Shown: in pieces, positions 1,984 through 16,989 of the stretch
How positions within the stretch are numbered: the first letter of the stretch is position 1
Layout of the letters: the number at the start of each line of letters is the position of its first letter
Program-made: the position numbers and the translations under genes
UHGV virus genome: UHGV-0048692
Reading direction: 5' to 3' (one strand)
From: a virus
Length of the DNA: 16,989 bases
Notes under the pieces: model-generated
The model's database searches: none
What the model was told of the DNA's origin: nothing
Seen by the model: only the letters and a program-made list of their open reading frames with translations

Positions 1984-2098
1984 TTTTATCGTCCTTTCTG
2001 TCTCTTCGTAGTTGCCTTGCTTTTGAATCATCTTCAATAACGATCCTTCTTGCGGGTGGAGTAGGCCGAGGAGGTGGTGGCGGTAACGGTTTGGTCAT
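1961..2098 (-). CDS. Polyproline mini-protein 1 (45 aa, MTKPLPPPPPRPTPPARRIVIEDDSKARQLRRDRKDDKNDRTQKS)
   Basis: ATG overlaps the stop of the 216-aa gene (TAATG). AGGAG lies 8 nt upstream of the ATG. Below the 60-aa cutoff of the ORF track. Confidence 0.4.
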   Translation of the reverse strand: MTKPLPPPPPRPTPPARRIVIEDDSKARQLRRDRKDDKNDRTQKS

Positions 2099-2748: not shown

Positions 2749-2770
2749 GTATCAAACATATCACGATAAC

Positions 2771-2798
2771 AAAAAAAGAAAAGCCGCAATTCTGCGGC
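2771..2798 (-). terminator. Rho-independent terminator downstream of portal gene Q
   Basis: On the - strand, GCCGCA-GAAT-TGCGGC followed by TTTTCTTTTTTT, immediately after the Q stop codon. Confidence 0.6.
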
Positions 2799-2808
2799 TG
2801 TTGGGAAG

Positions 2809-3843
2809 CTAATCTAGCGATAATTCGTAATTTGTGAACCCTATCGCGTTTTTATCCAGCCATTTATTAAGCTCCTCAAAGCGTCTCTGAAGCGGAATAA
2901 GTTCATTACGAACGAATACGCGGCTGGCCTTCTCCACATCCCCAAATCCCCCAACATTATTAGGCATAATCCCCATCATCTGCGGTGGCACACGATGCGC
3001 CGCCATCATGTCATCCCGGCTCACGTTCTTGATGTTCAGAAACTCATCCTTCGCCGCGACTTCTGACAGAGGAATGATCTGAAGCCCATCCTTTTTGCCG
3101 TTAGGCGAGTACATAAACAGGTTGCGGAAGTTACCCGGTCCTTTGGCGCTTTTCATCGCATTGCGGAGGTTGTTCACATCCTCCTGGTTCTGCGCGGCAT
3201 CGGTCATGTACATGATGAAGCCTGCATGACTACCGTTAATGTAATACTTCCGGCGGAACAGCGTGGCGGACTCGTTGAGCAAAGCGGATGGGATGGCAGA
3301 AAGATAGCCGGGCAGGCCGTAGATCTCCTGATTAATATCCGGTTCCATCAGATGAAAAATGCTGCCTTTCGTGAACTGATACGGCTGGGTTGTCATACCG
3401 TATTGCACAAACCAGTAGGTATCCAGGTCTAACCCGCGTCGGGTATATTTTGCCAGAGCAGGCTCAAGGGCGATAACTTCACCGAAGCGGTTCGTGCGTT
3501 TCTCCAGATAGGCGTTACCAAATACCAGATAGTCCTGCACAAAACGTGAAAAAGCCTGCTGGCTGAGCAGCGGGTGAGGGATGTAGGTACTGGTCAGTAT
3601 GTTGCATTTCACCGCAATTGGTGAACTGTGATGCACGGCAGCGCGGAAGGTGCGCGCCAGTCCGTCAAAGCTTACTGGCGGCTCATACCAGCGATCTGTC
3701 TGTACGCATTCCACATAGTCCAGCAGTTCTCGGCGGTCCAGAACAGGAACGGGATCGCCGAAGCTGAATGCTTCGGCTGTAGTTTGACTTTTAAGCTGGA
3801 TCTGTTTCGTCGCCGAAGCGCGGTTCTTCTTACTCTTTCCCAT
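2809..3843 (-). CDS. Q: Portal (capsid) protein, P2 gpQ-like, 344 aa
   Basis: Size and position identical to P2 Q. ATG at 3843 overlaps the P stop (ATGA); the track's 3846 start is TTG. Confidence 0.9.
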   Translation of the reverse strand: MGKSKKNRASATKQIQLKSQTTAEAFSFGDPVPVLDRRELLDYVECVQTDRWYEPPVSFDGLARTFRAAVHHSSPIAVKCNILTSTYIPHPLLSQQAFSRFVQDYLVFGNAYLEKRTNRFGEVIALEPALAKYTRRGLDLDTYWFVQYGMTTQPYQFTKGSIFHLMEPDINQEIYGLPGYLSAIPSALLNESATLFRRKYYINGSHAGFIMYMTDAAQNQEDVNNLRNAMKSAKGPGNFRNLFMYSPNGKKDGLQIIPLSEVAAKDEFLNIKNVSRDDMMAAHRVPPQMMGIMPNNVGGFGDVEKASRVFVRNELIPLQRRFEELNKWLDKNAIGFTNYELSLD

Positions 3844-5609
3844 CAAAAAATCTCCACAATATTGCTGGTATTGGCGGACTCGCCCTGCAGCGGTTCGTTA
3901 AACAGTGCGTGCATTGTTGCCCAGGCCAGATCGGCGTGGCTGGCTTCTTCGCTGCGGCTGGCTTCATAGGTCGGGCGGTTGCCGCTGGCGGTGGTGGCGC
4001 GACGGATTGCCATGAATGACTGCGCTATGTCGGTGTGTCCGGCGTCAAACTCCAGACGGCGGTGGCTGATAATGTCGTAGGCCTTGAGTACCAGGGCGTT
4101 TTTAACATTGGGGTTGTAGACAAACTCCCGGACGGCAGGAAAGAACGCTTTCACGTTCTCGTAAACCCCGTGGCCGACCCCAGTTGAGTCGATGCCGATA
4201 TAGGTCACGTTGTACTGTTCGGTCAGTTTTTTGATGGCGTCAGCCTGGGCGCGGAAGTCCATCCCGCGCCACTGGTGACGCTCAAGAATGCGGAACTTAC
4301 CACCCGGCACGGCTGGCGGTGCCACCACTACGCATCCGGCGCTGTCGCCGTTTTGCGTACCTTTTGCCGGGTCATAACCGATCCACACTTCGCGCCAGCC
4401 AAACGGGCGCAGCGCCAGTGCATGAAAGTCGGTCCAGACTTCCCAACTGTCCACCATGCACGCCTGCAGCTCGCTGAGCGGAAACACGGACGCGAGATCG
4501 TCCACAAACTCGCACATCAGCAGGTTCTGGTATTCGTCCGGGCTGTACTCCATGCGCAACTGGTCAAGGTCGAACAGGTTGCAGCCGCCGCGCACCGCAT
4601 CTTCCACGGTGACTATCTGGCGGTATTGCCCGTCTGCGCACAGCAGGCCGGGGGCCAGATTGCTGTGGGACAGGTCGATGTCCACCTTGTCAGCTTTGTT
4701 GCGTCCACGGTTGAACAGCGCACCGGACCAGAACGGATAAGCACTGTGGGTCAGGCTGGATGGCGTGGAAAAATAGGTTTGTCGCCATTTCTTGTGAATA
4801 GCCATCCCGGAAGCCACTTTGCGCAGCTCCTGGAATTTCGGTATCCAGAAATATTCATCCAGATACAGGTTGCCGTGATAACTCTGGGCCGTGCGGGCAT
4901 TGGTGCCGAGGAAGTAAAGCGTGGCCCCATTAGGAAGCACCATCGGATCGCCTTTTAGCTCCACCTCGACTTCTTTGGCGAAGTCGATGATGTATTGTTT
5001 AAAGACGTGGGCCTGTGCCTTACTGGCGGAAAGGAAAATCTGGTTACGTCCGGTAAGCAGGGCGTCAATCAGGGCTTCACGGGCAAAGTAAAAGGTCGCG
5101 CCGATCTGGCGTGACTTCAGCAGGTTGCGGATGCGGTTGGTTTTTCCGGCTTCCCACCAGTGGCGCTGGTAGTTGAACATGGAGGAATGGAAGATTTCTT
5201 CCAGCTTCTCAATCTGCTCATCGGTGAAAACATTCTTTTCCGGCTGACGGCGTGGGCCTTTGTTGCGGTTGGCGACGTTAGGGTTTAAGTCGGCTTCGTT
5301 GCCGCCATTGTTAAACTTGCCGATCCGCGCGTGGCGCTCCGACTGGCGCGCCAGCAGGTCAATCTCTTTGAAATCTTTCCCTTCTTTGTGCTCCTTCATA
5401 ATGAGCTGGCAGTAGCGTGCGGCGGTGGTGAGCTGCATCTGATCCAGCGGCCCATAGTCACCCCACTTGTCGCGTTTTTTCCAGCTGTGAACGGTTGCAA
5501 CTTTCTCGCCCAGCATTTCAGCAATGCGGGCTACGCGGTATCCCTGAAAGTACAGCAGCATGGCCTGCCGACGGGGATCGAGATCTGCGGGTGTCAGTGT
5601 GGTGTTCAT
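3843..5609 (-). CDS. P: Terminase large (ATPase) subunit, P2 gpP-like, 588 aa
   Basis: Size and position as P2 P. Divergent from O across a short intergenic region, as in P2. Confidence 0.9.
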   Translation of the reverse strand: MNTTLTPADLDPRRQAMLLYFQGYRVARIAEMLGEKVATVHSWKKRDKWGDYGPLDQMQLTTAARYCQLIMKEHKEGKDFKEIDLLARQSERHARIGKFNNGGNEADLNPNVANRNKGPRRQPEKNVFTDEQIEKLEEIFHSSMFNYQRHWWEAGKTNRIRNLLKSRQIGATFYFAREALIDALLTGRNQIFLSASKAQAHVFKQYIIDFAKEVEVELKGDPMVLPNGATLYFLGTNARTAQSYHGNLYLDEYFWIPKFQELRKVASGMAIHKKWRQTYFSTPSSLTHSAYPFWSGALFNRGRNKADKVDIDLSHSNLAPGLLCADGQYRQIVTVEDAVRGGCNLFDLDQLRMEYSPDEYQNLLMCEFVDDLASVFPLSELQACMVDSWEVWTDFHALALRPFGWREVWIGYDPAKGTQNGDSAGCVVVAPPAVPGGKFRILERHQWRGMDFRAQADAIKKLTEQYNVTYIGIDSTGVGHGVYENVKAFFPAVREFVYNPNVKNALVLKAYDIISHRRLEFDAGHTDIAQSFMAIRRATTASGNRPTYEASRSEEASHADLAWATMHALFNEPLQGESANTSNIVEIF

Positions 5610-5655
5610 GGCACAAACCTACAGCCTTGAATGAAGGCTTTCCCCGCCTGCGGTT

Positions 5656-5673
5656 TGTGTGGTTGTCGGTACA
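5656..5673. promoter_or_regulatory. TGT-N12-ACA dyad (Ogr/Delta-type late-activator site) in the divergent P/O promoter region
   Basis: TGTgtggttgtcggtACA, centred about 55 nt upstream of a plausible O transcription start. P2 late promoters carry this dyad near -55. Confidence 0.4.
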
Positions 5674-5751
5674 AATACCGCGCATTGTTTCACTGCCCCC
5701 ATCACCGCAACCATAAGGCTCCAGTAAGTTTTTTCTAACGGAGCACGGCTC

Positions 5752-6585
5752 ATGACAGTGAAAGCAAAGCGTTTTCGCATCGGGGTGGAAGGTGCCACCA
5801 CCGACGGACGCGAAATCCAGCGTGAATGGCTGGAACAGATGGCAGCCAGCTACAACCCGGCGGTGTATACCGCGCTGATTAACCTTGAGCACATCAAGTC
5901 TTATCTGCCGGACAGCACCTTTAACCGCTACGGCAAGGTGACGGCGCTATTTGCTGAAGAAATCACGGAAGGTCCGCTGGCAGGCAAGATGGCGCTGTAT
6001 GCCGACGTTGAGCCAACGGAATCCCTGGTGGAACTGGTGAAAAAAGGCCAGAAATTATTCACCTCTATGGAAGTCAGCCCGAAGTTTGCTGATACGGGCA
6101 AAGCCTACCTGGTCGGCCTGGCTGCCACTGATGACCCTGCCAGTCTGGGCACTGAAATGCTGACATTCAGCGCCAGTGCAGCCCATAACCCGCTGGCAAA
6201 CCGCAAGCAGAATCCCGCCAATCTTTTTACCGCTGCAGAGGAAACGGTGATCGAACTGGAAGAAATCCAGGATGACAAACCGTCCCTGTTTGCCCGTGTC
6301 ACGGCGCTGTTCACCAAAAAAGAGCAGTCCGATGACGCCCGGTTCTCTGATGTGCATAAGGCCGTGGAACTGGTCGCCACTGAGCAGCAGAACCTGAGTG
6401 CGCGCACCGAAAAATCCCTGTCTGAGCAGGAAGAACGCCTGTCTGAGCTGGAGACTGCCCTGCAGGCACAGCAGACCGCCTTTAACGAACTGGTGGACAA
6501 GCTGAGCCAAGAAGACAGCCGCCAGGACTACCGCCAGCGTGCAACAGGTGGTAACGCCCCCGCTGACACTCTGACCAATTGCTGA
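5752..6585 (+). CDS. O: Capsid scaffolding protein, P2 gpO-like, 277 aa
   Basis: Position and size (P2 O about 284 aa). Acidic coiled-coil C-terminal part typical of scaffolds. Confidence 0.85.
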   Translation: MTVKAKRFRIGVEGATTDGREIQREWLEQMAASYNPAVYTALINLEHIKSYLPDSTFNRYGKVTALFAEEITEGPLAGKMALYADVEPTESLVELVKKGQKLFTSMEVSPKFADTGKAYLVGLAATDDPASLGTEMLTFSASAAHNPLANRKQNPANLFTAAEETVIELEEIQDDKPSLFARVTALFTKKEQSDDARFSDVHKAVELVATEQQNLSARTEKSLSEQEERLSELETALQAQQTAFNELVDKLSQEDSRQDYRQRATGGNAPADTLTNC

Positions 6586-6601
6586 TGGAGCACAAAACCT
6601 G

Positions 6602-7660
6602 ATGAAGAAGAATACCCGCTTTGCTTTTAACGCTTACCTGCAGCAACTGGCGCGTCTGAACGGTGTGGCAGTTGAAGAACTGTCCAGCAAGTTCACCGTA
6701 GAGCCGTCCGTGCAGCAGACATTGGAAGACCAGATCCAGCAGTCCGCCGCTTTCCTGACGCTGATTAACGTCACGCCAGTGACTGAGCAGTCCGGTCAGC
6801 TGCTGGGGTTGGGAGTTGGCAGCACCATTGCCGGAACCACTGATACCACCGCGAAAGAGCGTGAACCTATCGATCCGACGCTGATGGTCGATGTGGAATA
6901 TAAATGCGAGCAGACCAACTTTGACACGGTACTGACCTACGCGAAGCTGGACCTGTGGGCGAAGTTTCAGGATTTTCAGGTGCGTATCCGTGACGCCATC
7001 GTGAAACGTCAGGCACTGGACCGCATCATGATCGGCTTTAACGGCGTGAAGCGTGCGAAAACCTCCAACCGTAGCGAAAACCCGTTACTGCAGGATGTGA
7101 ATAAAGGCTGGCTGCAGAAAATCCGTGAGGATGCACCGGATCACGTCATGGGCAGCACCACCACGGGCGGTGAAACCACACCGGGTGCGGTGAAAGTCGG
7201 GAAAGGTGGCGAATATGCCAACCTGGACGCCGTGGTGATAGATGCCGTTAATGAGCTTATCGACGTGGTCTATCAGGACGATGACGATCTGGTGGTGATT
7301 TGCGGTCGTGAACTGCTGTCTGACAAGTATTTCCCGCTGGTCAACAAAGAGCAGGAAAACAGTGAAAAACTGGCTGCCGATATGATCATCAGTCAGAAAC
7401 GCATGGGTGGCCTGCAGGCCGTGCGTGCGCCGTTCTTCCCGCCGAATGCGCTGCTGATCACCCGTCTGGATAACCTGTCCATCTACTGGCAGGAAGACAC
7501 CCGCCGCCGTTCAGTTATCGACAACCCGAAACGTGACCGGATTGAAAACTTTGAATCCGTTAACGAAGCCTATGTGGTTGAGGACTACCGCTGCGCCGCA
7601 CTGGTGGAAAACATCCAGATTGGTGATTTCAGCGCCGCCGCAGCCGAAACCGGAGCGTAA
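6602..7660 (+). CDS. N: Major capsid protein, P2 gpN-like, 352 aa
   Basis: Position after O and size (P2 N about 357 aa). Confidence 0.9.
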   Translation: MKKNTRFAFNAYLQQLARLNGVAVEELSSKFTVEPSVQQTLEDQIQQSAAFLTLINVTPVTEQSGQLLGLGVGSTIAGTTDTTAKEREPIDPTLMVDVEYKCEQTNFDTVLTYAKLDLWAKFQDFQVRIRDAIVKRQALDRIMIGFNGVKRAKTSNRSENPLLQDVNKGWLQKIREDAPDHVMGSTTTGGETTPGAVKVGKGGEYANLDAVVIDAVNELIDVVYQDDDDLVVICGRELLSDKYFPLVNKEQENSEKLAADMIISQKRMGGLQAVRAPFFPPNALLITRLDNLSIYWQEDTRRRSVIDNPKRDRIENFESVNEAYVVEDYRCAALVENIQIGDFSAAAAETGA

Positions 7661-7663
7661 TCC

Positions 7664-8314
7664 ATGAGCCTGAGTCCCGCACGGCAGCATCGCCTGCGCG
7701 TTCAGGCTGAACAGGCCGCCCGCGAGGGCGGCAGTGTTCGCCACGCATCGGGCTATGACCTGATGCTGCTGCAACTGGCGGAAGACCGCCGCCGTCTCAA
7801 GGGCGTTCAGTCCACGGTCAAAAAAGCGGAAATCAAGGTGGAGCTGCTGCCGAAGTACGCCGCCTGGGCGGAGGGCGTCCTGGCTGCCGGAGGCGCTCAA
7901 CAGGATGACGTGCTGATGTACGTGATGCTGTGGCGCATTGATGCCGGAGATTATGCCGGGGCGCTGGAGATCGGGCGTCATGCCCTGCGTCATGGCTGGG
8001 TGATGCCGCTGGGTAACCGCAACGTGCAGACCGTGCTGGCAGAGGAAATGGCAGATGCAGCGCAGAGCGCAATGCTTGCCGCCACCGACTTTGATGCCGA
8101 TCTGTTGCTGCAGACGCTGGAGCTGACAGACGGTCTGGATATGCCGGACCAGTCACGGGCGCGTCTGCATAAAGCGATTGGCGCTGTCCTGAGTGAAAGC
8201 AATCCGGCTTCCGCCCTTAATCATCTCAACCATGCGTTACAGCTCGATCCCCGCTGTGGCGTGAAAAAAGACAAACAGCAGCTGGAGCGCAGACTGCGCA
8301 ATGACAGCCGCTGA
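7664..8314 (+). CDS. M: Terminase small (endonuclease) subunit, P2 gpM-like, 216 aa
   Basis: Position after N. Arg-rich N-terminus. Confidence 0.8.
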   Translation: MSLSPARQHRLRVQAEQAAREGGSVRHASGYDLMLLQLAEDRRRLKGVQSTVKKAEIKVELLPKYAAWAEGVLAAGGAQQDDVLMYVMLWRIDAGDYAGALEIGRHALRHGWVMPLGNRNVQTVLAEEMADAAQSAMLAATDFDADLLLQTLELTDGLDMPDQSRARLHKAIGAVLSESNPASALNHLNHALQLDPRCGVKKDKQQLERRLRNDSR

Positions 8315-8409
8315 CAGAACGTGCCCCCGCGCACGGGCGGCACGGGGTGGCGAAAGGCACTGCCACATCAAAACCCCGTCCACCGCCCTCTATTTCAGGA
8401 GAAAGCAGC

Positions 8410-8874
8410 ATGAAGTTTGTTGCGCCAGAACAGGCACCGGAACAGGCGGAAATCATCAGAAATACGCCGTTCTGGCCTGATGTGGACCTGTCGGAGTTTC
8501 GCTGTGTCATGCGCACTGACGGCACGGTGACGCAGCCGCGTTTAAAGCAGGTTGCGCTGTCGGCAATTTCGGAGGTCAACGCAGAGCTGTATGAGTTTCG
8601 CAGACGTCAGCAGATGCTGGGATATGCCTCGCTGGCAGAGGTTCCGGCGGAACAGCTGGACGGCAAAAGTGAGCGCATTCATCACTATTTCAACGCGGTT
8701 TACTGCTGGGCACGCGCCATGCTCAACGAGCGTTATCAGGACTATGACGCCACGGCATCCGGTGTGAAGCGGGGCGAGGAACTGGCGGAAGCAAGCGGTG
8801 ATTTGTGGCGTGACGCCCGCTGGGCCATCAGCCGGGTGCAGGATGCGCCGCACTGCACAGTGGAGCTTATCTGA
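8410..8874 (+). CDS. L: Head completion/stabilisation protein, P2 gpL-like, 154 aa
   Basis: ATG at 8410 preceded by AGGAGAAA. The track's longer ORF from 8347 lacks an SD. ATGA overlap with X. Confidence 0.75.
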   Translation: MKFVAPEQAPEQAEIIRNTPFWPDVDLSEFRCVMRTDGTVTQPRLKQVALSAISEVNAELYEFRRRQQMLGYASLAEVPAEQLDGKSERIHHYFNAVYCWARAMLNERYQDYDATASGVKRGEELAEASGDLWRDARWAISRVQDAPHCTVELI

Positions 8875-9077
8875 TGAAAGTGCGTGCGCATCAGTATGAC
8901 ACGGTGGACGCGCTTTGCTGGCGTCATTACGGGCGCACGCAGGGTGTCACGGAGCAGGTACTGAAGGCAAATCCGGGGCTTGCCGAATACGGCCCCTTTT
9001 TACCTCACGGGCTGCAGGTGGAGCTGCCGGACATTCCGACAACCACCACCGTGCAGACCGTCCAGCTATGGGACTGA
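8874..9077 (+). CDS. X: Tail protein X, 67 aa
   Basis: Exactly the size of P2 gpX, in the P2 position. Confidence 0.75.
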   Translation: MKVRAHQYDTVDALCWRHYGRTQGVTEQVLKANPGLAEYGPFLPHGLQVELPDIPTTTTVQTVQLWD

Positions 9078-9080
9078 ATT

Positions 9081-9296
9081 ATGACGCTTGAGCGAATCAG
9101 CGCCTTTATCACGTATTGCATCGCCGTCGTGCTGGCCTGGCTGGGCGATTTGTCCATCAAGGATGCCTCAACGCTGGGCGGCCTGATGATTGGTGTGCTG
9201 ATGCTGGCTATCAACTGGTACTACAAACACAAAGCCTACCAGCTTCTGCGCGACGGGCAGATCACGCGGGAGGACTATGAATCCATCAATCGTTAA
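9081..9296 (+). CDS. Holin, probably pinholin-like (71 aa, two TM helices)
   Basis: Two hydrophobic helices and a charged C-terminus. Immediately upstream of, and overlapping, the endolysin gene. Confidence 0.6.
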   Translation: MTLERISAFITYCIAVVLAWLGDLSIKDASTLGGLMIGVLMLAINWYYKHKAYQLLRDGQITREDYESINR

Positions 9297-9789
9297 ACGC
9301 TGCCTTGTCGGGGCCGTGCTGGCTATTGCTGCCACGCTGCCGGGTTTTCAGCAGCTTCACACCTCCGTGGAGGGGCTGAAACTGATTGCTGATTACGAAG
9401 GCTGTCGTCTGCAGCCGTATCAGTGTAGCGCGGGTGTCTGGACCGACGGCATTGGTAATACGTCGGGCGTCATTCCCGGCAAAACCATTACGGAGCGACA
9501 GGCAGCAGAAGGGCTGATCTCCAACGTGCTGCGTGTGGAGCGGGCGCTGGAAAGGTGTGTGAAGCAACAGCCGCCGCAGAAGGTGTATGACGCTGCGGTG
9601 TCGTTTGCCTTCAACGTGGGAACGGGCAATGCCTGCAGTTCCACACTGGTGAAATTACTCAATCAGCGGCGCTGGGCGGATGCGTGCCGACAGTTGCCGC
9701 GCTGGGTTTATGTGAAAGGTGTTTTTAATCAGGGGCTGGATAACCGCCGTGCGCGGGAGATGGCCTGGTGCTTACAGGGAGCAAACTGA
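9277..9789 (+). CDS. K: Endolysin, T4-lysozyme-like (GH24) with an N-terminal signal-anchor-release (SAR) domain, 170 aa
   Basis: Gly/Ala-rich weakly hydrophobic N-terminus (LVGAVLAIAATLPGF) followed by an EGLKL...D...T catalytic motif like T4 lysozyme and P21 R. Confidence 0.8.
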   Translation: MNPSIVKRCLVGAVLAIAATLPGFQQLHTSVEGLKLIADYEGCRLQPYQCSAGVWTDGIGNTSGVIPGKTITERQAAEGLISNVLRVERALERCVKQQPPQKVYDAAVSFAFNVGTGNACSSTLVKLLNQRRWADACRQLPRWVYVKGVFNQGLDNRRAREMAWCLQGAN

Positions 9790-9790
9790 A

Positions 9791-10168
9791 ATGAAAAAGA
9801 AAGTAATCAGCGGGCTGTTTCTGATGTTATGGATGGCGCTGTTGATCGCAGCAATGGTGTATCCACAGGGGATTTTTCCGGTACTGGCAGCGTCCGGTGT
9901 CTGGGTAGCCTGTCTGCTGACATGGGCGGTAATTCCGGTAGCACTGGCTGCGTTAATTAAGAACGGCCCGCTCTGGCAGGAGTTGAGGGCATCTTTGCTA
10001 AAGACCATTACCCGAAAAGAAAACGTATTTATCAGCTGGGTGATGCGATTGCTGATTGTCGTAAGTTTCGCCTGGACGGGGTGGGCTATTACCCTGGTCT
10101 TTTATCTGCTGACCGTTATTGCCTTCTGGATGATCCGTAATCAGATTGCGCAACAGGTAGCAGCATGA
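9791..10168 (+). CDS. lysA: LysA-like polytopic membrane protein, 125 aa
   Basis: ATG 2 nt after the endolysin stop, with GGGAG upstream. Several TM helices. Position as P2 lysA. Confidence 0.6.
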   Translation: MKKKVISGLFLMLWMALLIAAMVYPQGIFPVLAASGVWVACLLTWAVIPVALAALIKNGPLWQELRASLLKTITRKENVFISWVMRLLIVVSFAWTGWAITLVFYLLTVIAFWMIRNQIAQQVAA

Positions 10169-10593
10169 ACCGGTTGCTGCTGGTTGTGCTGGCGTTATTA
10201 CTGGCGGCGCTGGGCTGGCAGACGTGGCGGCTGGCTGATGCCAGCCAGACCATCAGCACGCAGGCAGACGAGCTTCGGAGCAAAAGCCAGGCACTGGCAA
10301 AGAGCAACAGCCAGCTTATCAGCCTGTCCATTCTGACTGAAACCAATAACCGGGAGCAGGCGCGGCTCTATGCCGAAGCAGAACAGACCAGTGTACTGCT
10401 GAGACAACGACAACACCGGATTGAGGAACTGAAACGTGAGAACGAGGATTTACGCCGCTGGGCTGATACTCCTTTGCCTGCTGACATTATCCGGCTGCGG
10501 GAACGCCCCACACTCACCGGAGGTGCAGCTTACCGTCAGTGGTTGTCCGCGAGTGACGCCGTGTCGGCTGGGGCAGGCAGCGCCGCGCACTAA
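10165..10593 (+). CDS. lysB: Inner-membrane spanin (Rz-like), P2 LysB-like, 142 aa
   Basis: N-terminal TM helix followed by a long coiled-coil region. ATGA overlap with lysA. Confidence 0.7.
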   Translation: MNRLLLVVLALLLAALGWQTWRLADASQTISTQADELRSKSQALAKSNSQLISLSILTETNNREQARLYAEAEQTSVLLRQRQHRIEELKRENEDLRRWADTPLPADIIRLRERPTLTGGAAYRQWLSASDAVSAGAGSAAH

Positions 10594-10726
10594 CGGTGAC
10601 CTGAACGCGTTGCTGGATGAAACGGAGGCCGCCTGGGCGGTCTGTGCAGACAAAGTGGACATGATTATTGCGTGTCAGGAGCGAAACAGTGAACAAACCA
10701 CAATCCCTGCGCCACGCCCTCAATAA
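10436..10726 (+). CDS. lysC: Outer-membrane lipoprotein spanin (Rz1-like), P2 LysC-like, 96 aa
   Basis: Starts in the +1 frame inside lysB and runs past its end. Lipobox LTLSGC with Cys; Pro-rich mature part. Confidence 0.7.
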   Translation: MRTRIYAAGLILLCLLTLSGCGNAPHSPEVQLTVSGCPRVTPCRLGQAAPRTNGDLNALLDETEAAWAVCADKVDMIIACQERNSEQTTIPAPRPQ

Positions 10727-11120
10727 AGCGGTGCCTTATGTCCGCAATAACCCGGACAAACTGCATCTGTTTGTGGATAACGGTTCGCTGGTTGCCACGG
10801 GGGCCAGCTCCATGTCATGGGAGTACCGCTATACCCTGAACGTGGTGATAGAGGATTTCAGCGGCGACCAGAATCTGCTGATGGCCCCGGTTTTACTGTG
10901 GCTTCGGGATAACCAGCCCGATGCCATCAATAACCCGGCGTTACGGGAAAAGCTATTCACCTTTGATGTGGATATTTTGCGCAACGATGTCTGTGATATC
11001 AGCCTTAATCTGCAACTGACGGAACGTGTGCTGGTCAGCACTGACGGCAGTGTGTCGAGCGTTGAAGCTGTAGCAGAACCCGATGAACCTGAAGAAATGT
11101 GGACGGTGAAACGTGGCTGA
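10689..11120 (+). CDS. R: Tail completion protein, P2 gpR-like (about 143 aa from GTG 10689)
   Basis: GTG at 10689 with AGGAG 7 nt upstream. The track's ORF begins at TTG 10668. Position after lysC. Confidence 0.7.
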   Translation: MNKPQSLRHALNKAVPYVRNNPDKLHLFVDNGSLVATGASSMSWEYRYTLNVVIEDFSGDQNLLMAPVLLWLRDNQPDAINNPALREKLFTFDVDILRNDVCDISLNLQLTERVLVSTDGSVSSVEAVAEPDEPEEMWTVKRG

Positions 11121-11559
11121 ACTGCAGAAGGTGGACGACTGGCTGAGTGCCTTGCTGGCGAATCTGGAACCAGTCGCAAGAAGCCGCATGATGCGCCAGC
11201 TGGCGCAGGAACTGCGCCGGACACAGCAGCAGAATATCAGGATGCAGCGCAATCCAGATGGCAGCAGTTATGAGCCGCGCAGGGTAACAGCACGCAGCAA
11301 AAAGGGGCGCATCAAACGTCAGATGTTTACAAAGCTGCGCACCACACAATACCTGAAAACTGCCGCCAGCGCCGACTCTGCCAGCGTGCAGTTTGAAGGC
11401 AAGGTACAGCGCATTGCCCGTGTTCATCACTACGGCTTACGTGATCGCGTCAGCCGCAAAGGACCGGAGGTACGGTACGCAGAGCGGCAGTTGTTGGGGA
11501 GCAACGATGAGTTAGAGGCCATCACTCATGATATTTTACTTCATTGGTTGTCAGGGTGA
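11113..11559 (+). CDS. S: Tail completion protein, P2 gpS-like, 148 aa
   Basis: Position and size (P2 S about 150 aa). Overlaps R by 8 nt. Confidence 0.8.
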   Translation: MAELQKVDDWLSALLANLEPVARSRMMRQLAQELRRTQQQNIRMQRNPDGSSYEPRRVTARSKKGRIKRQMFTKLRTTQYLKTAASADSASVQFEGKVQRIARVHHYGLRDRVSRKGPEVRYAERQLLGSNDELEAITHDILLHWLSG

Positions 11560-11560
11560 G

Positions 11561-12412
11561 TTATATAAAAGGGTTTCTATAATCACTAAAATTCCAGTTG
11601 ATATGATGATCGCTGAATTCTGCTTCTTTTAATATGACTAGGCAGTTTAATCGTTTAAATTGTGAGTAAAAATCCTTTAGTGCAAAACTGATTGTTTTAG
11701 AGCCTCTTTTCATCGGCATGGTTTGGAATTGACCATTGTGAAATAATGCGTTCCTTAAGCTACAGTAAATATCAAGTGAGATGTCATGATGTTTATTGTT
11801 TTGTTGATTTATATTAAACCCATGCTTTTTGAGGTAACGATACATGATTGGCGTAATGTTTGATTTAAAATCATTCTCACGTTCTCGAACTAATGACTCA
11901 AGGCCAGAAAAAAGTAAGTAATATGATACATCAAGATAATTTATTGGATTAGAGAAAACCAATACATTTTTATGAGGTATTGTGGTAAATGGTCGATCTC
12001 TAGCAATGATGATCTTATTTATAGCAAGTTCAATAAAGTAGCGTCTTGAGTTTTTGGAAAAGCAATCTTCAAGAATGATTTCTCCTGAACTTGATAAGTT
12101 AATATTAGGAGTTATAAAGAGAGGGTAATCTATGGGCAAGTCAAATTTATGAGTCTTATTATTTAGTTGGTGTCTGATAAATACTGCTCTCTGTTCTATA
12201 AAACTCAAAATTTTCTCTAGATGAAATATGATATTATCTGTTTCGCTCTTGTCTATGATGTCAAGTTCAAGGAGCGCAGTAAGATATAATTTTTCCTTGT
12301 CTTGTCTATATTTTTTTAATTTAAGAAAACTGGTTTCTATTGGATACATTGTCCCGAATGAAAAGTGAGTTATCTTTGTTAGAGTAAAGCCGTAAATACC
12401 AACAGTAAACAT
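11561..12412 (-). CDS. Hypothetical protein, 283 aa, strongly AT-rich moron on the opposite strand between S and V; possible abortive-infection-type protein
   Basis: Long clean ORF whose composition is clearly foreign to the phage backbone. One R-x4-H motif (RNALFH, residues 220-225, nt 11738-11755). No P2 late gene of this size at this position. Confidence 0.6.
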   Translation of the reverse strand: MFTVGIYGFTLTKITHFSFGTMYPIETSFLKLKKYRQDKEKLYLTALLELDIIDKSETDNIIFHLEKILSFIEQRAVFIRHQLNNKTHKFDLPIDYPLFITPNINLSSSGEIILEDCFSKNSRRYFIELAINKIIIARDRPFTTIPHKNVLVFSNPINYLDVSYYLLFSGLESLVRERENDFKSNITPIMYRYLKKHGFNINQQNNKHHDISLDIYCSLRNALFHNGQFQTMPMKRGSKTISFALKDFYSQFKRLNCLVILKEAEFSDHHINWNFSDYRNPFI

Positions 12413-12425
12413 TCAATCTCCATTT

Positions 12426-12443
12426 TGTATCTTCATTCATACA
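12426..12443. promoter_or_regulatory. TGT-N12-ACA dyad upstream of V (putative late promoter PV activator site)
   Basis: TGTatcttcattcatACA, centred about 55 nt upstream of the V start codon. Confidence 0.35.
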
Positions 12444-12489
12444 AATTTCTTCGCAATGGTAGGACATTCTAATGTGAGACACTTTAGAA

Positions 12490-13068
12490 ATGAACGCACA
12501 ATTAACCGAAATCATGCGCCTTATCACCAACCTGATCCGCACAGGGGTAGTCACCGAAGTGGACAGGGAAAACTGGCTTTGCCGGGTGAAAACGGGCGAG
12601 CTTGAAACCAACTGGATCAGCTGGCTGATGCTGCGTGCCGGGAATGCCCGTACATGGTGGCGACCATCGGAAGGTGAGCAGGTGGTGCTGCTGAGTCTGG
12701 GCGGCAATCTGGAAACCGCCTTTGCGCTGCCCGCTGTCTATTCGAATCAGTTCGCACCACCGTCGACGTCGGCGGACGCCTGCGTGACAGAACATCCTGA
12801 CGGTGGCTGGTTTGAATACGAACCCGCCACCGGGCGCTGGTATGTCAGGGGCATCAAATCAATGGTCATTGAGGCTGCTGACAACATCACCATGAAAACC
12901 AGTGAGTTTGTACTGGAGGCTGACCGCACGCGCATTAACAGCGAAGTGGTGATCAATGGTGGCGTTACCCAGGGCGGCGGAGCGATGAGTTCTAACGGGA
13001 TCGTGGTTGATGCGCATCAGCATACTGGCGTCCTGAAAGGCGGCGATACAACCGGAGGCCCGGTATGA
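12490..13068 (+). CDS. V: Baseplate spike/assembly protein, P2 gpV-like, 192 aa
   Basis: N-terminus and Gly-rich C-terminus resemble P2 gpV. Position before W. Confidence 0.85.
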   Translation: MNAQLTEIMRLITNLIRTGVVTEVDRENWLCRVKTGELETNWISWLMLRAGNARTWWRPSEGEQVVLLSLGGNLETAFALPAVYSNQFAPPSTSADACVTEHPDGGWFEYEPATGRWYVRGIKSMVIEAADNITMKTSEFVLEADRTRINSEVVINGGVTQGGGAMSSNGIVVDAHQHTGVLKGGDTTGGPV

Positions 13069-13424
13069 CGCTTTATAGCGGGATGAACAATACCAGCGGC
13101 AAAGTCATTACTGATATTGATCATCTGCGCCAGTCGGTGCGGGACATTCTGCTGACACCGCAGGGTAGCCGTATTGCCCGCCGGGAATATGGTTCCCTGC
13201 TGTCGGCACTGATAGATCAGCCACAAAATCCGGCATTACGCCTGCAGGTCATGTCGGCAGTGTATGTGGCGCTGAGTCGCTGGGAGCCACGGTTGACGCT
13301 GGATTCCATCACCATCAACAGCAATTTTGACGGTTCAATGGTGGTGGAGCTGACCGGGCGGCGGAATAACGGTGTGCCTGTGTCCCTTTCCGTATCAACA
13401 GGAGCAGAGAATGGCAGTGATTGA
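13065..13424 (+). CDS. W: Baseplate wedge protein, P2 gpW-like (gp25/GPW family), 119 aa
   Basis: Size and position. ATGA overlap with V. Confidence 0.85.
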   Translation: MTLYSGMNNTSGKVITDIDHLRQSVRDILLTPQGSRIARREYGSLLSALIDQPQNPALRLQVMSAVYVALSRWEPRLTLDSITINSNFDGSMVVELTGRRNNGVPVSLSVSTGAENGSD

Positions 13425-14319
13425 CCTTTCGCAGTTGCCTGCACCGCAGATTGTGGATGTGCCGGACTTTGAGACGCTGCTTGCCGAACGCAAGGCAGAA
13501 TTTGTGGCGCTTCATCCGAAAGATGAGCAGGAAGCAGTGATCCGCACGCTGGAACTGGAATCTGAACCCGTCACCAAATTGCTGCAGGAGAACGCTTACC
13601 GTGAGTTGCTTCTGCGCCAGCGCATTAACGAAGCCGCGCAGGCTGTGATGGTGGCTTACGCGATGGGCAGCGATCTTGACCAGCTCGCTGCCAACTACAA
13701 CGTGAAACGCCTGACGGTGACGCCTGCTGATAATGACGCTGTGCCGCCCGTTGCAGCTGTGATGGAAAGCGATGAAGCGTTACGCCTGCGTGTGCCTGCA
13801 GCCTTTGAAGGGCTTTCAGTTGCGGGGCCAACTGCAGCTTATGAATTTCATGCCCGAAGCGCCGACGGTCGGGTGGCGGATGCCAGTGCAACCAGCCCGG
13901 CACCTGCAGAGGTGGTGCTGACTGTCCTTAGCCGCGAAGGCGATGGAACTGCAGAAAAAAACCTGCTGGACGTGGTGGAAAAAGCTCTGAACAGTGAGAA
14001 CGTCCGCCCGGTGGCTGACCGTATTACGGTTCGCAGCGCAGAAATCATCCCGTATCGCGTGGAAGCCACCATTTTTCTCTATCCGGGACCGGAAGCAGAG
14101 CCGGTAATGGCAGCGGCAAAAGCCAGCCTGCAGAAGTACATCGCCAGTCAGACGCGTCTTGGTCGGGATATTCGCCGTAGCGCCATCTTTGCCGCCCTGC
14201 ATGTTGAGGGTGTGCAGCGTGTGGAGCTGGCTTCTCCTCTGGCGGATGTGGTCCTGAACAAAACACAGGCGGCATCATGTACGCAGTGGAGCGTAACCAA
14301 CGGAGGAACGGATGAATAG
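13411..14319 (+). CDS. J: Baseplate protein, P2 gpJ-like, 302 aa
   Basis: ATG at 13411 with AGGAG upstream gives 302 aa, the size of P2 J. The track's ORF starts earlier at GTG 13372. Confidence 0.85.
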   Translation: MAVIDLSQLPAPQIVDVPDFETLLAERKAEFVALHPKDEQEAVIRTLELESEPVTKLLQENAYRELLLRQRINEAAQAVMVAYAMGSDLDQLAANYNVKRLTVTPADNDAVPPVAAVMESDEALRLRVPAAFEGLSVAGPTAAYEFHARSADGRVADASATSPAPAEVVLTVLSREGDGTAEKNLLDVVEKALNSENVRPVADRITVRSAEIIPYRVEATIFLYPGPEAEPVMAAAKASLQKYIASQTRLGRDIRRSAIFAALHVEGVQRVELASPLADVVLNKTQAASCTQWSVTNGGTDE

Positions 14320-14917
14320 TCTGCTGCCACCGGGTTCAACACCACTGGAGCGCCGACTGGCGCAAACCTGCAGCGGGATTTCTGATCTGCAGGTGCCGCT
14401 TCGTGACTTGTGGAATCCGGCAACCTGTCCGGTCAGTTTCCTGCCTTATCTCGCCTGGGCGTTCTCTGTGGATCGCTGGGACGAGGGCTGGACAGAAAGC
14501 GTCAAGCGCCAGGTGGTGAAGGATGCTTTTTATATTCATCAGCATAAAGGGACCACCAGTGCCGTGCGGCGGGTGGTGGAGCCGTTCGGCTTTCTGATCC
14601 GCATTATTGAGTGGTGGCAGACCGGAGAGGCACCGGGCACGTTTCGCCTGGATATCGGCGTGCAGGACCAGGGCATCACTGAAGATACCTATCTGGAACT
14701 TGAGCGACTGATAAGCGATGCCAAACCATGTAGCCGCCACATGATCGGCATGTCCATCAATCTGCAGACCAGCGGCCCGCATTGGGTGGGAGCCGCCAGC
14801 TATCTTGGCGAAGAAATCACGATCTATCCGTATATCAACGAAACGATTATTTCCGGTGGCACCGCGCATGAAGGCGGGGCGGTCCATGTTATTGACACAA
14901 TGAGAGTGAATCCATGA
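14312..14917 (+). CDS. I: Baseplate/tail protein, P2 gpI-like, 201 aa
   Basis: Position between J and H. Overlaps both neighbours. Confidence 0.8.
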   Translation: MNSLLPPGSTPLERRLAQTCSGISDLQVPLRDLWNPATCPVSFLPYLAWAFSVDRWDEGWTESVKRQVVKDAFYIHQHKGTTSAVRRVVEPFGFLIRIIEWWQTGEAPGTFRLDIGVQDQGITEDTYLELERLISDAKPCSRHMIGMSINLQTSGPHWVGAASYLGEEITIYPYINETIISGGTAHEGGAVHVIDTMRVNP

Positions 14918-16416
14918 GCACAAAATTTTATACCCTGCTGACGGATATTGGCGCGGCGAAACTTGCCAGCGCCGCCGCGCTCGGTGTGCCGCTAAAAATT
15001 ACCCATATGGCGGTGGGCGATGGCGGCGGAGCATTGCCGACGCCGGACGCAAAGCAGACGGCACTGGTAAATGAGAAACGCCGGGCTGCGCTGAATATGC
15101 TCTATATCGACCCGCAGAACAGCAGCCAGATTATTGCTGAACAGGTGATCCCTGAAAACGAGGGCGGTTGGTGGATACGTGAAGTGGGCCTGTTTGATGA
15201 GTCCGGGGCATTGATTGCCGTGGGAAACTGCCCGGAAAGCTATAAGCCGCAACTGGCTGAAGGCAGCGGGCGTACCCAGACCGTGCGCATGGTGCTGATC
15301 ACCAGCAGCACGGACAATATCACCCTGAAAATCGACCCTGCTGTAGTGCTGGCAACCCGTAAATACGTGGATGATAAAGTCCTGGAATTAAAGCTGTATG
15401 TGGATGACCAGATGAGAAACCACATTGCCGCACAAGATCCTCATACCCAGTATGCGCAGAAACATAATCCGACATTTACCGGAGAACCAAAAGCGCCGAC
15501 GCCTGCAGCAGGAAATAACACCACTCGGATTGCGACCACAGAGTTTGTTCAGGCCGCTATTACTGCTCTGATTAACGGTGCGCCAGCCACGCTGGACACA
15601 CTGAAAGAAATTGCCGCAGCCATTAACAATGACCCGAAATTCAGTACCACTATTAATAATGCACTGGCACTGAAAGCGCCGCTGTCGAGTCCGGCACTCA
15701 CCGGAACGCCAACAGCACCTACTGCGGCACAGTCGGTCAACAATACACAGATTGCCACCACGGCATTTGTGAAATCGGCGATTGCGGCAATGGTGGGTTC
15801 TGCACCTGCGGCACTGGATACACTGAACGAACTGGCGGCGGCACTGGGGAATGATCCGAACTTTGCCACGACAATGCTTAATGCGCTGGCAGGTAAACAA
15901 CCGCTGGACAATACGCTGACTCATTTGAGTGGAAAGGATGTAGCAGGTCTTCTCGCATACCTTGGTTTGGGAGAAGCGGCAAAACGAAATGTGGGCAACG
16001 GGGAAAACCAAATCCCTGATATGTCTTTCTGGACGGTTACTGGTGGCAATGGAAATTTTGTGATTCGTCAACCTGACGGGCTAATCATTCAGATGGTTAC
16101 TGTAAGTATAAGCGGTCCAGTGGCGATGAATGGAATGACTGATAATGCTTATGCCATTACAGGTTCTAATAAGTCTTATATTGCCACAGCCACATTGCCC
16201 TTTGTATTTCCTAATAAGGTGCTGGGCGTTATCCCTCTGGTATCAACAACAGCTTATGGTGGTGTATCCAGTAATATTACAGGTTCATACGCGACGGCGG
16301 TTTGTTCTTTTGCCGCTGTCAGGGGGAATAATACGATTGTGTTCAAAGTCGACAAACCACTGAATGCAGCCTTTCCTTCAGATACCAGCGTCTCAGCGTT
16401 AATCATTGGACGGTAA
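14914..16416 (+). CDS. H: Tail fibre protein, P2 gpH-like, 500 aa, with a compositionally distinct C-terminal receptor-binding part
   Basis: Conserved N-terminus MSTKFYTLLTDIGAAKLA..., internal tandem fibre repeats (IATTEFV... and IATTAFV... units), AT-richer C-terminal third. Confidence 0.85.
   Translation: MSTKFYTLLTDIGAAKLASAAALGVPLKITHMAVGDGGGALPTPDAKQTALVNEKRRAALNMLYIDPQNSSQIIAEQVIPENEGGWWIREVGLFDESGALIAVGNCPESYKPQLAEGSGRTQTVRMVLITSSTDNITLKIDPAVVLATRKYVDDKVLELKLYVDDQMRNHIAAQDPHTQYAQKHNPTFTGEPKAPTPAAGNNTTRIATTEFVQAAITALINGAPATLDTLKEIAAAINNDPKFSTTINNALALKAPLSSPALTGTPTAPTAAQSVNNTQIATTAFVKSAIAAMVGSAPAALDTLNELAAALGNDPNFATTMLNALAGKQPLDNTLTHLSGKDVAGLLAYLGLGEAAKRNVGNGENQIPDMSFWTVTGGNGNFVIRQPDGLIIQMVTVSISGPVAMNGMTDNAYAITGSNKSYIATATLPFVFPNKVLGVIPLVSTTAYGGVSSNITGSYATAVCSFAAVRGNNTIVFKVDKPLNAAFPSDTSVSALIIGR
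15950..15975. other. Putative site-specific inversion crossover site (Hin/Gin/Cin/Pin-type) inside H
   Basis: 26-bp imperfect palindrome TTCTCGCATACCTTGGTTTGGGAGAA, about 19 of 26 identical to hixL as I recall it (TTATCAAAAACCTTGGTTTTCAAGAA). Sits where composition changes within H. Confidence 0.5.
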
Positions 16417-16418
16417 GA

Positions 16419-16862
16419 ATGAACTCAGTATTCTTTTCACCCGGAAGTAAAAGTTTTTATCTGCAAGAATTGTTTCCAGAATATGAGGATGCGGGAACGC
16501 TTCCTGATGATGTTATTGAAATTACCAGAGAAACATATGAGCAATTTCTTGGGCTGCATCCAGAAGGGAAAGAAATTGGCGCTGACAGTTCAGGACGACC
16601 AGTATGGATTAATTCCCCACCGCCTTCAAAAGAGGATGAGGTGCTGGCGGCTGAAATGAAAAAAATATCTTTGGTTTCAGAAGTCAATACCTACATCAAT
16701 ACCCATCAGTGGCCTGGCAAAGCTGCTATTGGTCGTCTGAAAGGTGACGAGCTGGAACAATATAATTTATGGCTGGATTATCTGGACGCACTGGAACTGG
16801 TCGATACTTCCGGTGCGCCAGATATTGAATGGCCTACGCCTCCGGCAGTTCAGGCCAGATGA
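16419..16862 (+). CDS. G: Tail fibre assembly chaperone, P2 gpG-like (Tfa family), 147 aa
   Basis: Position after H and a typical Tfa C-terminus (...DIEWPTPP...). Confidence 0.8.
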   Translation: MNSVFFSPGSKSFYLQELFPEYEDAGTLPDDVIEITRETYEQFLGLHPEGKEIGADSSGRPVWINSPPPSKEDEVLAAEMKKISLVSEVNTYINTHQWPGKAAIGRLKGDELEQYNLWLDYLDALELVDTSGAPDIEWPTPPAVQAR

Positions 16863-16989
16863 CATCCGGCGCGGTGCTGGTATCTGTTGCCGTCACCGCG
16901 TCAATGTAATCCAGCACAGCGTTAAGTCGGGTGTTTTCTGTATGCGTCAGCTTCCGCCCGGCCTGTAATTTCAGTTGAATCAGACTGAT
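16834..16989 (-). CDS. 3' part of a second, convergent tail-fibre-assembly gene (partial; ...NAVLDYIDAVTATDTSTAPDVIWPELPEA*)
   Basis: Frame open on the - strand from the window edge to TAG at 16834-16836. Tfa-like C-terminus. Overlaps the 3' end of G by 29 nt. Confidence 0.55.
   Translation of the reverse strand: MSLIQLKLQAGRKLTHTENTRLNAVLDYIDAVTATDTSTAPDVIWPELPEA

What the first reader, a model, noticed from the sequence alone, without database searches (positions are those of the whole stretch)
15950..16989. Probable invertible host-range segment: recombinase crossover site inside H and two convergent tail-fibre-assembly genes
A 26-bp imperfect palindrome (TTCTCGCATACCTTGGTTTGGGAGAA, 15950-15975) with the ACC-TTGG-TTT core and TTCTC/GAGAA arms typical of hix/gix/cix/pix sites lies inside H, exactly where the sequence becomes AT-richer. 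Downstream, G (a Tfa chaperone) is followed by the 3' end of a second Tfa-like gene on the opposite strand, overlapping G by 29 nt. This is the tail-to-tail arrangement of the Mu G segment and the P1 C segment. It predicts an alternative H C-terminus, a second crossover site and a serine invertase just beyond the window. Canonical P2 has no such switch.
Basis: partly seen in the sequence, partly recalled or inferred. Interest (0 to 1): 0.6.

Follow-up and report, generated by a model that had tools for sequence, protein, structure and literature searches.

The report
Invertible tail-fibre switch, P2-like prophage

Summary
The site TTCTCGCATACCTTGGTTTGGGAGAA lies at 15950-15975 inside tail-fibre gene H, where GC drops from about 0.55 to 0.43. 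It is followed by a Tfa chaperone gene and the 3' end of a convergent TfaE-like gene that overlaps it by 29 nt.

The window is a complete 16,989-bp metagenome contig, so the predicted partner site and invertase cannot be read in it. Relatives supply them. Five relatives were inspected: three E. coli prophages and the phages pro483 and Cartapus. All continue with TfaE, a silent reverse-strand H C-terminal exon and a 188-197-aa serine invertase, then the tail sheath gene. The invertase is 83.5 % identical to e14 PinE and 71.5 % to Mu Gin. In the three prophages the inverted partner site was read directly, and it starts about 55 bp upstream of the invertase gene.

The closest relative is 99.6 % identical up to position 15976. 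It carries the window's remaining 1,028 bp at 99.4 % identity, but inverted and at the far end of the segment. The breakpoints fall at the central TT of the site.

This is an e14 Pin-type invertible tail-fibre segment in a P2-like prophage. The kind is already described (EPEC P2-like prophages, Fels-2 fin). Interest is low.

The parts
14914..16416 (+). Tail-fibre gene H (500 aa). The constant part covers aa 1-354 (14914-15975). The currently expressed variable C-terminus 'HvA' covers aa 355-500 (15976-16416).
   Evidence: ORF list. Pfam Phage_tail_fib 1-150, E 3e-65, and a weak Gp53-like_C match at 387-470. Homology of many relatives stops at 15961-15978.
15950..15975 (.). Proximal 26-bp crossover site of pixL type: two 12-bp half-sites, TTCTCGCATACC and (reverse complement) TTCTCCCAAACC, flank the core TT at 15962-15963.
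   Evidence: It has 3 mismatches to e14 pixL and is identical to the left site of L003. It is the only match in the window to a gix/pix-derived consensus, with 0 of 200 shuffles matching.
15962..15963 (.). Central dinucleotide TT, the inferred point of staggered cleavage and strand exchange.
   Evidence: The window/L003 alignments switch partner within 15962-15976. The partner sites in L001, L002 and L003 read AA on the + strand, which is TT in inverted alignment. Cleavage at the central 2 bp is established knowledge for Hin/Gin-family invertases and was not tested here.
15976..16989 (.). Proximal half of the invertible segment, which is about 2.0 kb in relatives. It is AT-richer than the constant region. 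The contig ends inside it.
   Evidence: The segment including both sites spans 1995 bp in L001 (6251-8245), 1959 bp in L002 and 2010 bp in L003.
16419..16862 (+). G / tail-fibre assembly chaperone (147 aa) paired with HvA. Its C-terminus resembles e14 TfaP.
   Evidence: Pfam Caudo_TAP, E 1.5e-27. The C-terminal ...YNLWLDYL.ALELVDTS.APDIEWPTPPAVQAR is shared with e14 TfaP.
16834..16989 (-). 3' end (51 codons plus stop) of the convergent, currently silent TfaE-like chaperone gene. It overlaps G by 29 nt.
   Evidence: It matches the L001 TfaE at 51 of 52 compared positions (stop counted) and e14 TfaE at 49 of 52. The same 29-nt overlap occurs in e14, pro483 and Cartapus.

Best explanation
The window carries the proximal end of a Pin/Gin-family (serine DNA invertase) invertible tail-fibre segment in a P2-like (Peduoviridae) E. 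coli prophage.

The late V-W-J-I-H operon transcribes a constant H N-terminal part, which ends in the motif LLAYLGLGE. That motif is encoded by a 26-bp pix-type crossover site. About 2 kb downstream, just beyond the contig end, an inverted partner site should sit about 55 bp upstream of a 188-aa invertase gene.

The invertase, presumably helped by Fis and an enhancer inside its own gene, would pair the two sites, cut at the central TT and rotate the strands. This flips the segment.

- In the orientation seen in the window, H is completed by variable exon HvA (146 aa), which is co-expressed with its chaperone G.
- In the other orientation, H is completed in frame by HvB (a Collar-domain tip of about 160-165 aa), which is co-expressed with the TfaE-like chaperone.

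Progeny phage from one lysogen population would therefore carry one of two receptor-binding tips, which is host-range bet-hedging.

Shown here: the site, its position and frame, the convergent cassettes, and the complete system and both orientations in near-identical relatives. Inferred: the presence of the distal half in this genome, catalysis at TT, Fis dependence, and the host-range consequence.
For: The site is present and non-random.

It is near-identical to e14 pixL, and the partner site in relatives is identical to e14 pixR.

Relatives L001, L002, L003, phage pro483 and phage Cartapus all have H, Tfa, a convergent Tfa, a silent H exon, an invertase and then the sheath gene.

The invertase has Resolvase+HTH_7 domains and Ser9 in the VRVSTNDQ motif. 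It is 83.5 % identical to PinE and 71.5 % to Gin. It matches the Gin structures 3uj3 and 4m6f at E 1e-92.

The 99.6 %-identical prophage L003 carries the window's segment inverted at 99.4 %. The junctions fit reciprocal exchange at the core.

Both fusions are open reading frames.

There are exactly two sites per relative locus.

Among 5,426 complete E. coli genomes, 25 have the HvA cassette joined to Hc and 158 have it next to the invertase.

The spacing from the end of the partner site to the invertase start codon is 54-55 bp here, in e14 and in Mu.

Inversion in P2-like E. coli prophages and in e14 has been shown experimentally by sequencing and PCR (PMC4272514). Fels-2 tail-fibre inversion by fin is described in PMC7953296.
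Against: The window itself holds only one site and no invertase. It is a 4.4x metagenome contig that ends inside the segment, so the rest is extrapolated from relatives.

No read-level evidence of both orientations in this sample could be examined.

A simple scan for two Fis-like sites 48 bp apart in the invertase gene was inconclusive: none in the relatives or in pinE, and one pair in gin.

Promoter and terminator scans were at chance level.

The host-range effect of HvA versus HvB is untested. The Pfam match of HvA to Gp53-like_C is below the curated cut-off.
Confidence: 0.88

Rival explanations
1. Frozen relic. The site and the convergent cassettes are remnants of a former switch. In this particular prophage the distal site or the invertase has been lost or inactivated, so the fibre is fixed as HvA. 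Canonical P2 is an example: it keeps a gix-like relic in H but has no switch.
For: The contig ends before the distal half. P2 H retains TTATCGAATATCTCGGTTTACAGGAA at the homologous YLGLQE motif, with 3 mismatches to the gix/pix-derived consensus and read by eye as 3 differences from Mu gix, yet P2 has no invertase. The prophage has an IS1 at its left end, so it may be decaying.
Against: The convergent second Tfa gene is present and intact as far as it can be read. All five relatives inspected that have this tail-to-tail layout carry an intact invertase. The site is identical to that of L003, which lies in the opposite orientation, implying recent inversion in this lineage. From established knowledge, Pin-family invertases act in trans, and the partner site equals e14 pixR, so other resident invertases could flip the segment.
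Confidence: 0.08
2. Modular exchange only. The homology break at 15976 reflects horizontal swapping of tail-fibre tips by homologous or illegitimate recombination at the conserved YLGLGE-coding sequence, not site-specific inversion.
For: Many relatives, including Klebsiella phages, share the region up to 15961-15978 and then carry unrelated tips. Cassettes pair in different combinations: only 32 genomes carry the exact L001 combination.
Against: This does not explain why the 99.6 %-identical L003 has the very same 1,028 bp reverse-complemented at the other end of the segment, with reciprocal half-site junctions. It also does not explain the adjacent invertase. Cassette exchange probably occurs in addition to inversion, not instead of it.
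Confidence: 0.03
3. Assembly artefact. The low-coverage metagenome contig is a chimera joined at the conserved site.
For: Coverage is 4.4x. The contig ends fall in repeats: IS1 on the left and a multi-copy tfaE-like sequence on the right.
Against: The same Hc-HvA-G junction is found contiguous in 25 complete E. coli genomes at about 98 % identity. Full-length matches to 15700-16989 are present as well.
Confidence: 0.01

Closest known systems
e14 P segment / PinE of E. coli K-12 (pix sites, stfP-tfaP / tfaE-stfE)
   Same: The crossover site differs from pixL at 3 of 26 positions, and the partner site in relative L001 is identical to pixR. The invertase of relatives is 83.5 % identical to PinE. 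The TfaE cassette is 88.5 % identical at DNA level, and the convergent chaperone genes show the same 29-nt overlap. The site-to-invertase spacing is the same, 54-55 bp.
   Different: The host element is an apparently complete P2-like late region rather than the defective lambdoid e14. The constant part is P2-type H (Phage_tail_fib N-terminus). The expressed tip HvA and its 147-aa chaperone are not the e14 StfP/TfaP sequences, apart from the chaperone C-terminus. The segment is about 2.0 kb, against 1.85 kb in e14.
Invertible tail-fibre segments of P2-like prophages and phages: EPEC E2348/69 P2-like prophages (PMC4272514), Salmonella Fels-2 with fin (PMC7953296), and RefSeq phages pro483 and Cartapus
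   Same: The genomic position is the same, between I/H and the sheath gene FI. The layout is the same: H, Tfa, convergent Tfa, silent H exon, invertase. Inversion has been shown experimentally in EPEC P2-like prophages (PMC4272514).
   Different: The particular tip cassettes differ between phages. pro483 and Cartapus match only 33-37 % of 15700-16989. I did not test whether the EPEC or Fels-2 cassettes are the same as HvA and HvB.
Phage Mu G segment / Gin
   Same: The principle is the same: a 26-bp site at the constant/variable border of the fibre gene, tail-to-tail S-U and U'-S' cassettes, and an invertase immediately downstream. Gin is 71.5 % identical to the relatives' invertase, and Gin structures are the best PDB matches.
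   Different: gix differs at 8 of 26 positions. The G segment is 3.1 kb. The chaperone genes do not overlap. The phage backbone is unrelated.
Canonical phage P2 (H-G-fun(Z)-FI)
   Same: The late-gene order Q P | O N M L X Y K ... V W J I H G is the same, and the H N-terminus is homologous. A gix-like relic lies at the homologous YLGLQE position in H.
   Different: P2 has no second Tfa, no silent exon, no partner site and no invertase. The fun(Z) gene occupies the slot before FI.

Membership tests
Hin/Gin/Cin/Pin-type invertible tail-fibre segment | A 26-bp crossover site made of two imperfect 12-bp inverted half-sites around a 2-bp asymmetric core, matching the gix/pix consensus | tested here: met
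   Window 15950-15975. It has 1 mismatch to a consensus built from the Mu and e14 sites and 3 mismatches to pixL. None of 200 shuffles gave a match.
Hin/Gin/Cin/Pin-type invertible tail-fibre segment | A second site in inverted orientation with the same core dinucleotide (in relatives) | tested here: met
   L001 8220-8245, L002 8184-8209 and L003 22072-22097. The core reads AA on the + strand, which is TT when inverted. Each locus has exactly two sites.
Hin/Gin/Cin/Pin-type invertible tail-fibre segment | A second site and an invertase gene in the window's own genome | not testable with these tools
   The window is the entire contig NODE_1012_length_16989 of ERZ504847 and ends 1,014 bp past the site. 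No exact continuation was found in genome or viral collections.
Hin/Gin/Cin/Pin-type invertible tail-fibre segment | An adjacent small serine recombinase with a catalytic Ser near residue 9-10 and a C-terminal HTH (in relatives) | tested here: met
   188 aa with Resolvase (E 2e-53) and HTH_7 domains. The MLIGYVRVSTNDQ motif has Ser9. It is 83.5 % identical to PinE and 71.5 % to Gin, and matches Gin PDB entries at E 1e-92.
Hin/Gin/Cin/Pin-type invertible tail-fibre segment | The site lies at the constant/variable border of the fibre ORF, and both orientations give in-frame full-length fibres, each with its own chaperone | tested here: met
   The window H is 500 aa (HvA plus G). The L003 H is 519 aa (HvB plus TfaE). 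A modelled fusion of the window Hc to the L001 HvB is open to its stop codon.
Hin/Gin/Cin/Pin-type invertible tail-fibre segment | Both orientations occur in nature for the same element | tested here: met
   Window versus L003: 99.6 % identity outside the segment, and 99.4 % inside it but reverse-complemented. The junction counts are 25 and 158 genomes. Switching within one clone was not testable here. It has been shown for other P2-like prophages (PMC4272514).
Hin/Gin/Cin/Pin-type invertible tail-fibre segment | A Fis-bound recombinational enhancer inside the 5' part of the invertase gene | tested here: inconclusive
   The 5' 250 nt of the gene is well conserved with pinE and gin. A crude scan for two G-N13-C Fis-like sites 48 bp apart found no pair in the relatives or in pinE, and one in gin. 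The Fis motif is too degenerate for this test.
Multiple-inversion systems (p15B Min; EPEC three-site P2-like locus) | More than two crossover sites, giving more than two fibre variants | tested here: not met
   Only two sites in each of L001, L002 and L003 at up to 4 mismatches to the consensus.
Shufflon (Rci tyrosine recombinase) | A tyrosine recombinase and multiple 19-bp sfx repeats | tested here: not met
   The recombinase in relatives is a serine resolvase/invertase, and the sites are 26-bp pix-type.
Canonical P2 tail-fibre region | A single H and a single G, followed by a terminator and fun(Z), with no invertase | tested here: not met
   The window has a convergent second Tfa gene after G. 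P2 has none.

The most novel reading that the evidence does not exclude
The sites are essentially pix: the partner site in a close relative is identical to e14 pixR. The segment might therefore be flipped in trans by other resident Pin-family invertases (PinE, PinQ, PinR). As recently reported for e14 StfE2 (PMC12529663), one orientation might then make the lysogen express a fibre-derived protein that masks receptors and blocks superinfecting phages. On this reading the switch would serve host defence as well as phage host range.
Probability: 0.07. Interest if true: 0.45.

Novelty: already known. Interest (0 to 1): 0.12.

Why it matters
For annotation, the 'H' protein predicted from this contig is only one of two alternative fibres. 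The prophage's host range cannot be read from one assembly orientation. Assemblies are also likely to break or mis-join here.

For biology it adds nothing new. Pin/Gin-type invertible tail-fibre segments are textbook, they have been shown to flip in P2-like E. coli prophages, and they are annotated in RefSeq Peduoviridae genomes.

The case is a useful positive control: a tool-free reader can recognise such a switch from a single half-segment.

Tried and rejected
1. I looked for the window's own continuation. An exact 60-mer from the contig end found nothing in genome contigs or viral contigs. An exact look-up of the H protein returned only the window's own contig.
2. I scanned the invertase gene for a Fis enhancer. 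The result was inconclusive.
3. Sigma-70 promoter and intrinsic terminator scans across the segment of L001 gave counts at the shuffle expectation and were uninformative.
4. My first site pattern was partly derived from the site itself, so I discarded it as circular. I replaced it with a consensus built from the Mu and e14 sites.
5. My first orientation counts used 1.29-kb queries. Segment-only matches cover 79.5-79.7 % of those queries, just under the 80 % threshold, so I re-counted with 300-bp junction-centred queries.
6. I considered and rejected a multiple-inversion (Min-like) system, a shufflon, and an assembly chimera.
Full report
**What the window is.** The ORF map shows a P2-like late region: portal and terminase on the minus strand, then scaffold, capsid, terminase small subunit, head completion, X, holin, lysozyme, LysB/C, R, S, V, W, J, I, H and G (annotation of relatives). 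An exact look-up of the H protein shows that the window is a complete metagenome contig, ena:ERZ504847:NODE_1012_length_16989_cov_4.37. Position 16989 is therefore a contig end, not an arbitrary cut, and nothing downstream can be read. An exact 60-mer from the contig end finds nothing in the genome and viral collections.

**Checking the observation.** The 26-mer TTCTCGCATACCTTGGTTTGGGAGAA is at 15950-15975.
- Twenty of its 26 positions are self-complementary, and the central TT is asymmetric.
- It sits in frame in H (14914-16416, 500 aa) and encodes LLAYLGLGE, residues 346-354.
- To avoid circularity I took the real crossover sites from the phage Mu and E. coli K-12 e14 records: gix TTCCTGTAAACCGAGGTTTTGGATAA, pixL CTCTCGAAAACCTTGGTTTGGGAGAA and pixR TTCTCCCAAACCAACGTTTATGAAAA. 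These lie at the annotated G-segment boundaries of Mu, and in e14 they flank the stfP...stfE segment next to pinE.
- A consensus built from those sites hits the window once, at this position, with 1 mismatch, and hits none of 200 shuffles.
- The window site differs from pixL at 3 positions and from gix at 8.
- GC drops from 0.53-0.57 to 0.41-0.46 just after the site.
- G (16419-16862) is a Caudo_TAP chaperone.
- The reverse strand of 16834-16989 encodes the C-terminal 51 residues and stop of a TfaE-like chaperone.
- The 29-nt overlap with G is exact, and the same overlap occurs between tfaP and tfaE of e14 and in phages pro483 and Cartapus.

**What lies beyond, judged from relatives.** Megablast of 15700-16989 against 5,426 complete E. 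coli genomes finds full-length matches at 97-98 %. In L001 (NCTC11121) and L002 (LR-25) the sequence continues as follows:
- the rest of the 603-nt tfaE-like gene (minus strand);
- a 498-534-nt minus-strand 'phage tail protein' with a Collar domain;
- a 567-nt 'recombinase family protein';
- the tail sheath gene FI.

The longest inverted repeat in these loci pairs the H-internal site with a site at the far end of the minus-strand exon, TTCTCCCAAACCAACGTTTATGAAAA in L001, which is identical to e14 pixR. With up to 4 mismatches to the consensus there are exactly two sites in each relative locus of 13-25 kb and one in the window.

The recombinase has Resolvase and HTH_7 domains and Ser9 in the motif VRVSTNDQ. 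It is 83.5 % identical to PinE and 71.5 % to Gin. Its best solved-structure matches are the Gin invertase entries 3uj3 and 4m6f, E 1e-92. Its start codon follows the end of the distal site by 55 bp, against 54 bp in e14 and Mu.

**Direct evidence of inversion.** Searching with the whole window shows that many relatives, including Klebsiella phages, stop aligning at 15961-15978, the right edge of the site. The closest relative, E. coli 22AR0118 (L003), is 99.6 % identical over 1-15976 and then diverges. Its annotation shows a 519-aa H, a 603-nt Tfa, then a minus-strand 444-nt Tfa and a 492-nt exon, followed by the recombinase. BLAST shows that window 15962-16989 equals L003 22085-21058 on the reverse strand at 99.4 %, with 6 mismatches in 1,028 bases.

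The four junctions read as follows:
- window left: TTCTCGCATACC-TT-GGTTTGGGAGAA|GCGGCAAAACG...
- L003 left: the same site, followed by |GGCTCTGCATT...
- L003 right, reverse complement: TTTTCTTAAACG-TT-GGTTTGGGAGAA|GCGGCAAAACG...
- L001 right, reverse complement: TTTTCATAAACG-TT-GGTTTGGGAGAA|GGCTCTGCATT...

The inner half-sites travel with the cassettes and the outer half-sites stay put. This is the signature of reciprocal exchange at the central dinucleotide.

Both orientations give open fibre genes. The window Hc joined to the L001 distal exon is open to its stop codon.

With 300-bp junction-centred queries, the HvA cassette is joined to Hc in 25 complete E. coli genomes and lies next to the invertase in 158. 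The earlier 1.29-kb queries gave 77 and 166.

**Mechanism.** The element behaves as a Pin-type switch. The late operon reads through the constant H part. The orientation of the roughly 2-kb segment decides whether HvA plus G, or HvB (Collar domain) plus TfaE, is expressed. The other pair is promoterless and antisense.

Cleavage at the central 2 bp, subunit rotation and the Fis/enhancer requirement follow from established knowledge of the Hin/Gin family. I could not confirm an enhancer computationally, and the promoter and terminator scans were uninformative.

**Comparison with what is known.** Canonical P2 has H, G, a terminator, fun(Z) and FI, with no invertase. P2 H nevertheless keeps a gix-like relic at the homologous YLGLQE motif.

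The arrangement is not new for P2-like phages:
- RefSeq Peduoviridae phages pro483 and Cartapus have the same layout, with an annotated 'DNA invertase'.
- Goldberg et al. 2014 demonstrated coexisting orientations in two P2-like prophages of EPEC E2348/69 and in e14 (PMC4272514).
- Inversion of the Fels-2 tail-fibre gene by the pin homologue fin is described in PMC7953296.
- A 2025 paper reports that inversion of the e14 P segment by PinQ yields a chimeric fibre protein that blocks T2 adsorption (PMC12529663). This motivates the only mildly novel reading left open.

**Rivals.**
- A frozen relic cannot be excluded for this particular contig. It is unlikely, because the convergent chaperone gene is intact as far as it can be read, every relative inspected has the invertase, and the lineage has inverted recently.
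- Cassette swapping by homologous recombination at the conserved motif clearly also happens, but it does not explain the reciprocal inverted arrangement.
- A chimeric assembly is excluded by contiguous matches in complete genomes.

**Verdict.** The feature is an already-known kind of system, seen here as a truncated copy. Interest is low.

Noticed in passing
window 1-111 and 16989 (contig ends): The window is a whole metagenome contig (ERZ504847 NODE_1012, 4.4x). I recognised its first ~111 bases as an IS1 terminus (...AAGTTGGAGTCATTACC). In the closest relative L003 an IS1A copy abuts the same point. The right end falls in the multi-copy tfaE-like sequence inside the invertible segment. Both contig breaks therefore coincide with repeats.
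   Followed up: partly
window 134-772 (+), with neighbours 775-1038 and 1031-1447: The 212-aa ORF matches NCBIfam LAPAL_fam (E 1e-35), phrog_3243 and the PADLOC candidate PDC-S42 (E 6e-28). It matches only from profile position ~95 onward, so it looks N-terminally truncated by the IS1. The two following small ORFs have no informative family match (the first only a marginal hit to an unknown-function PHROG). This is the variable cargo region beside the portal gene of P2-like phages.
   Followed up: partly
window 11561-12412 (-): A 283-aa ORF sits on the opposite strand between tail genes S and V. It matches phrog_4373 (unknown function) full-length, E 3e-134, and has no Pfam, NCBIfam or PADLOC hit. 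It is absent at this position in L003 and L002, and L001 has a different 384-aa ORF there. This is a second variable cargo slot.
   Followed up: partly
window 2098-2748 (-): A 216-aa ORF lies between the cargo region and the portal gene. It matches only phrog_36961 (unknown function, E 6e-22).
   Followed up: no
L007 2358-2383 (phage P2 NC_001895, about 13857-13882): Canonical P2 gene H contains TTATCGAATATCTCGGTTTACAGGAA, which I read as 3 differences from Mu gix. It lies at the position homologous to the window's crossover site (motif YLGLQE versus YLGLGE). P2 has no partner site or invertase, so this looks like a relic of a switch or of module exchange.
   Followed up: partly
window 15540-15900 (H aa ~210-335): By eye, H contains two tandem copies of a ~75-aa motif (...TTEFV.AAI.AL..GAPA.LDTL.E.AAA..NDP.F.TT..NAL..K.PL...). 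A weak offset self-similarity also appears between L003 and L001. This appears to be an ordinary tail-fibre shaft repeat.
   Followed up: no
L001 7073-7090 / 7199-7216 (window ~16772-16789 / 16898-16915): An 18-nt imperfect inverted repeat (GCTGGATTATCTGGACGC / GCGTCAATGTAATCCAGC) arises because both convergent chaperone genes encode the conserved LDY(L/I)DA motif near their C-termini.
   Followed up: no
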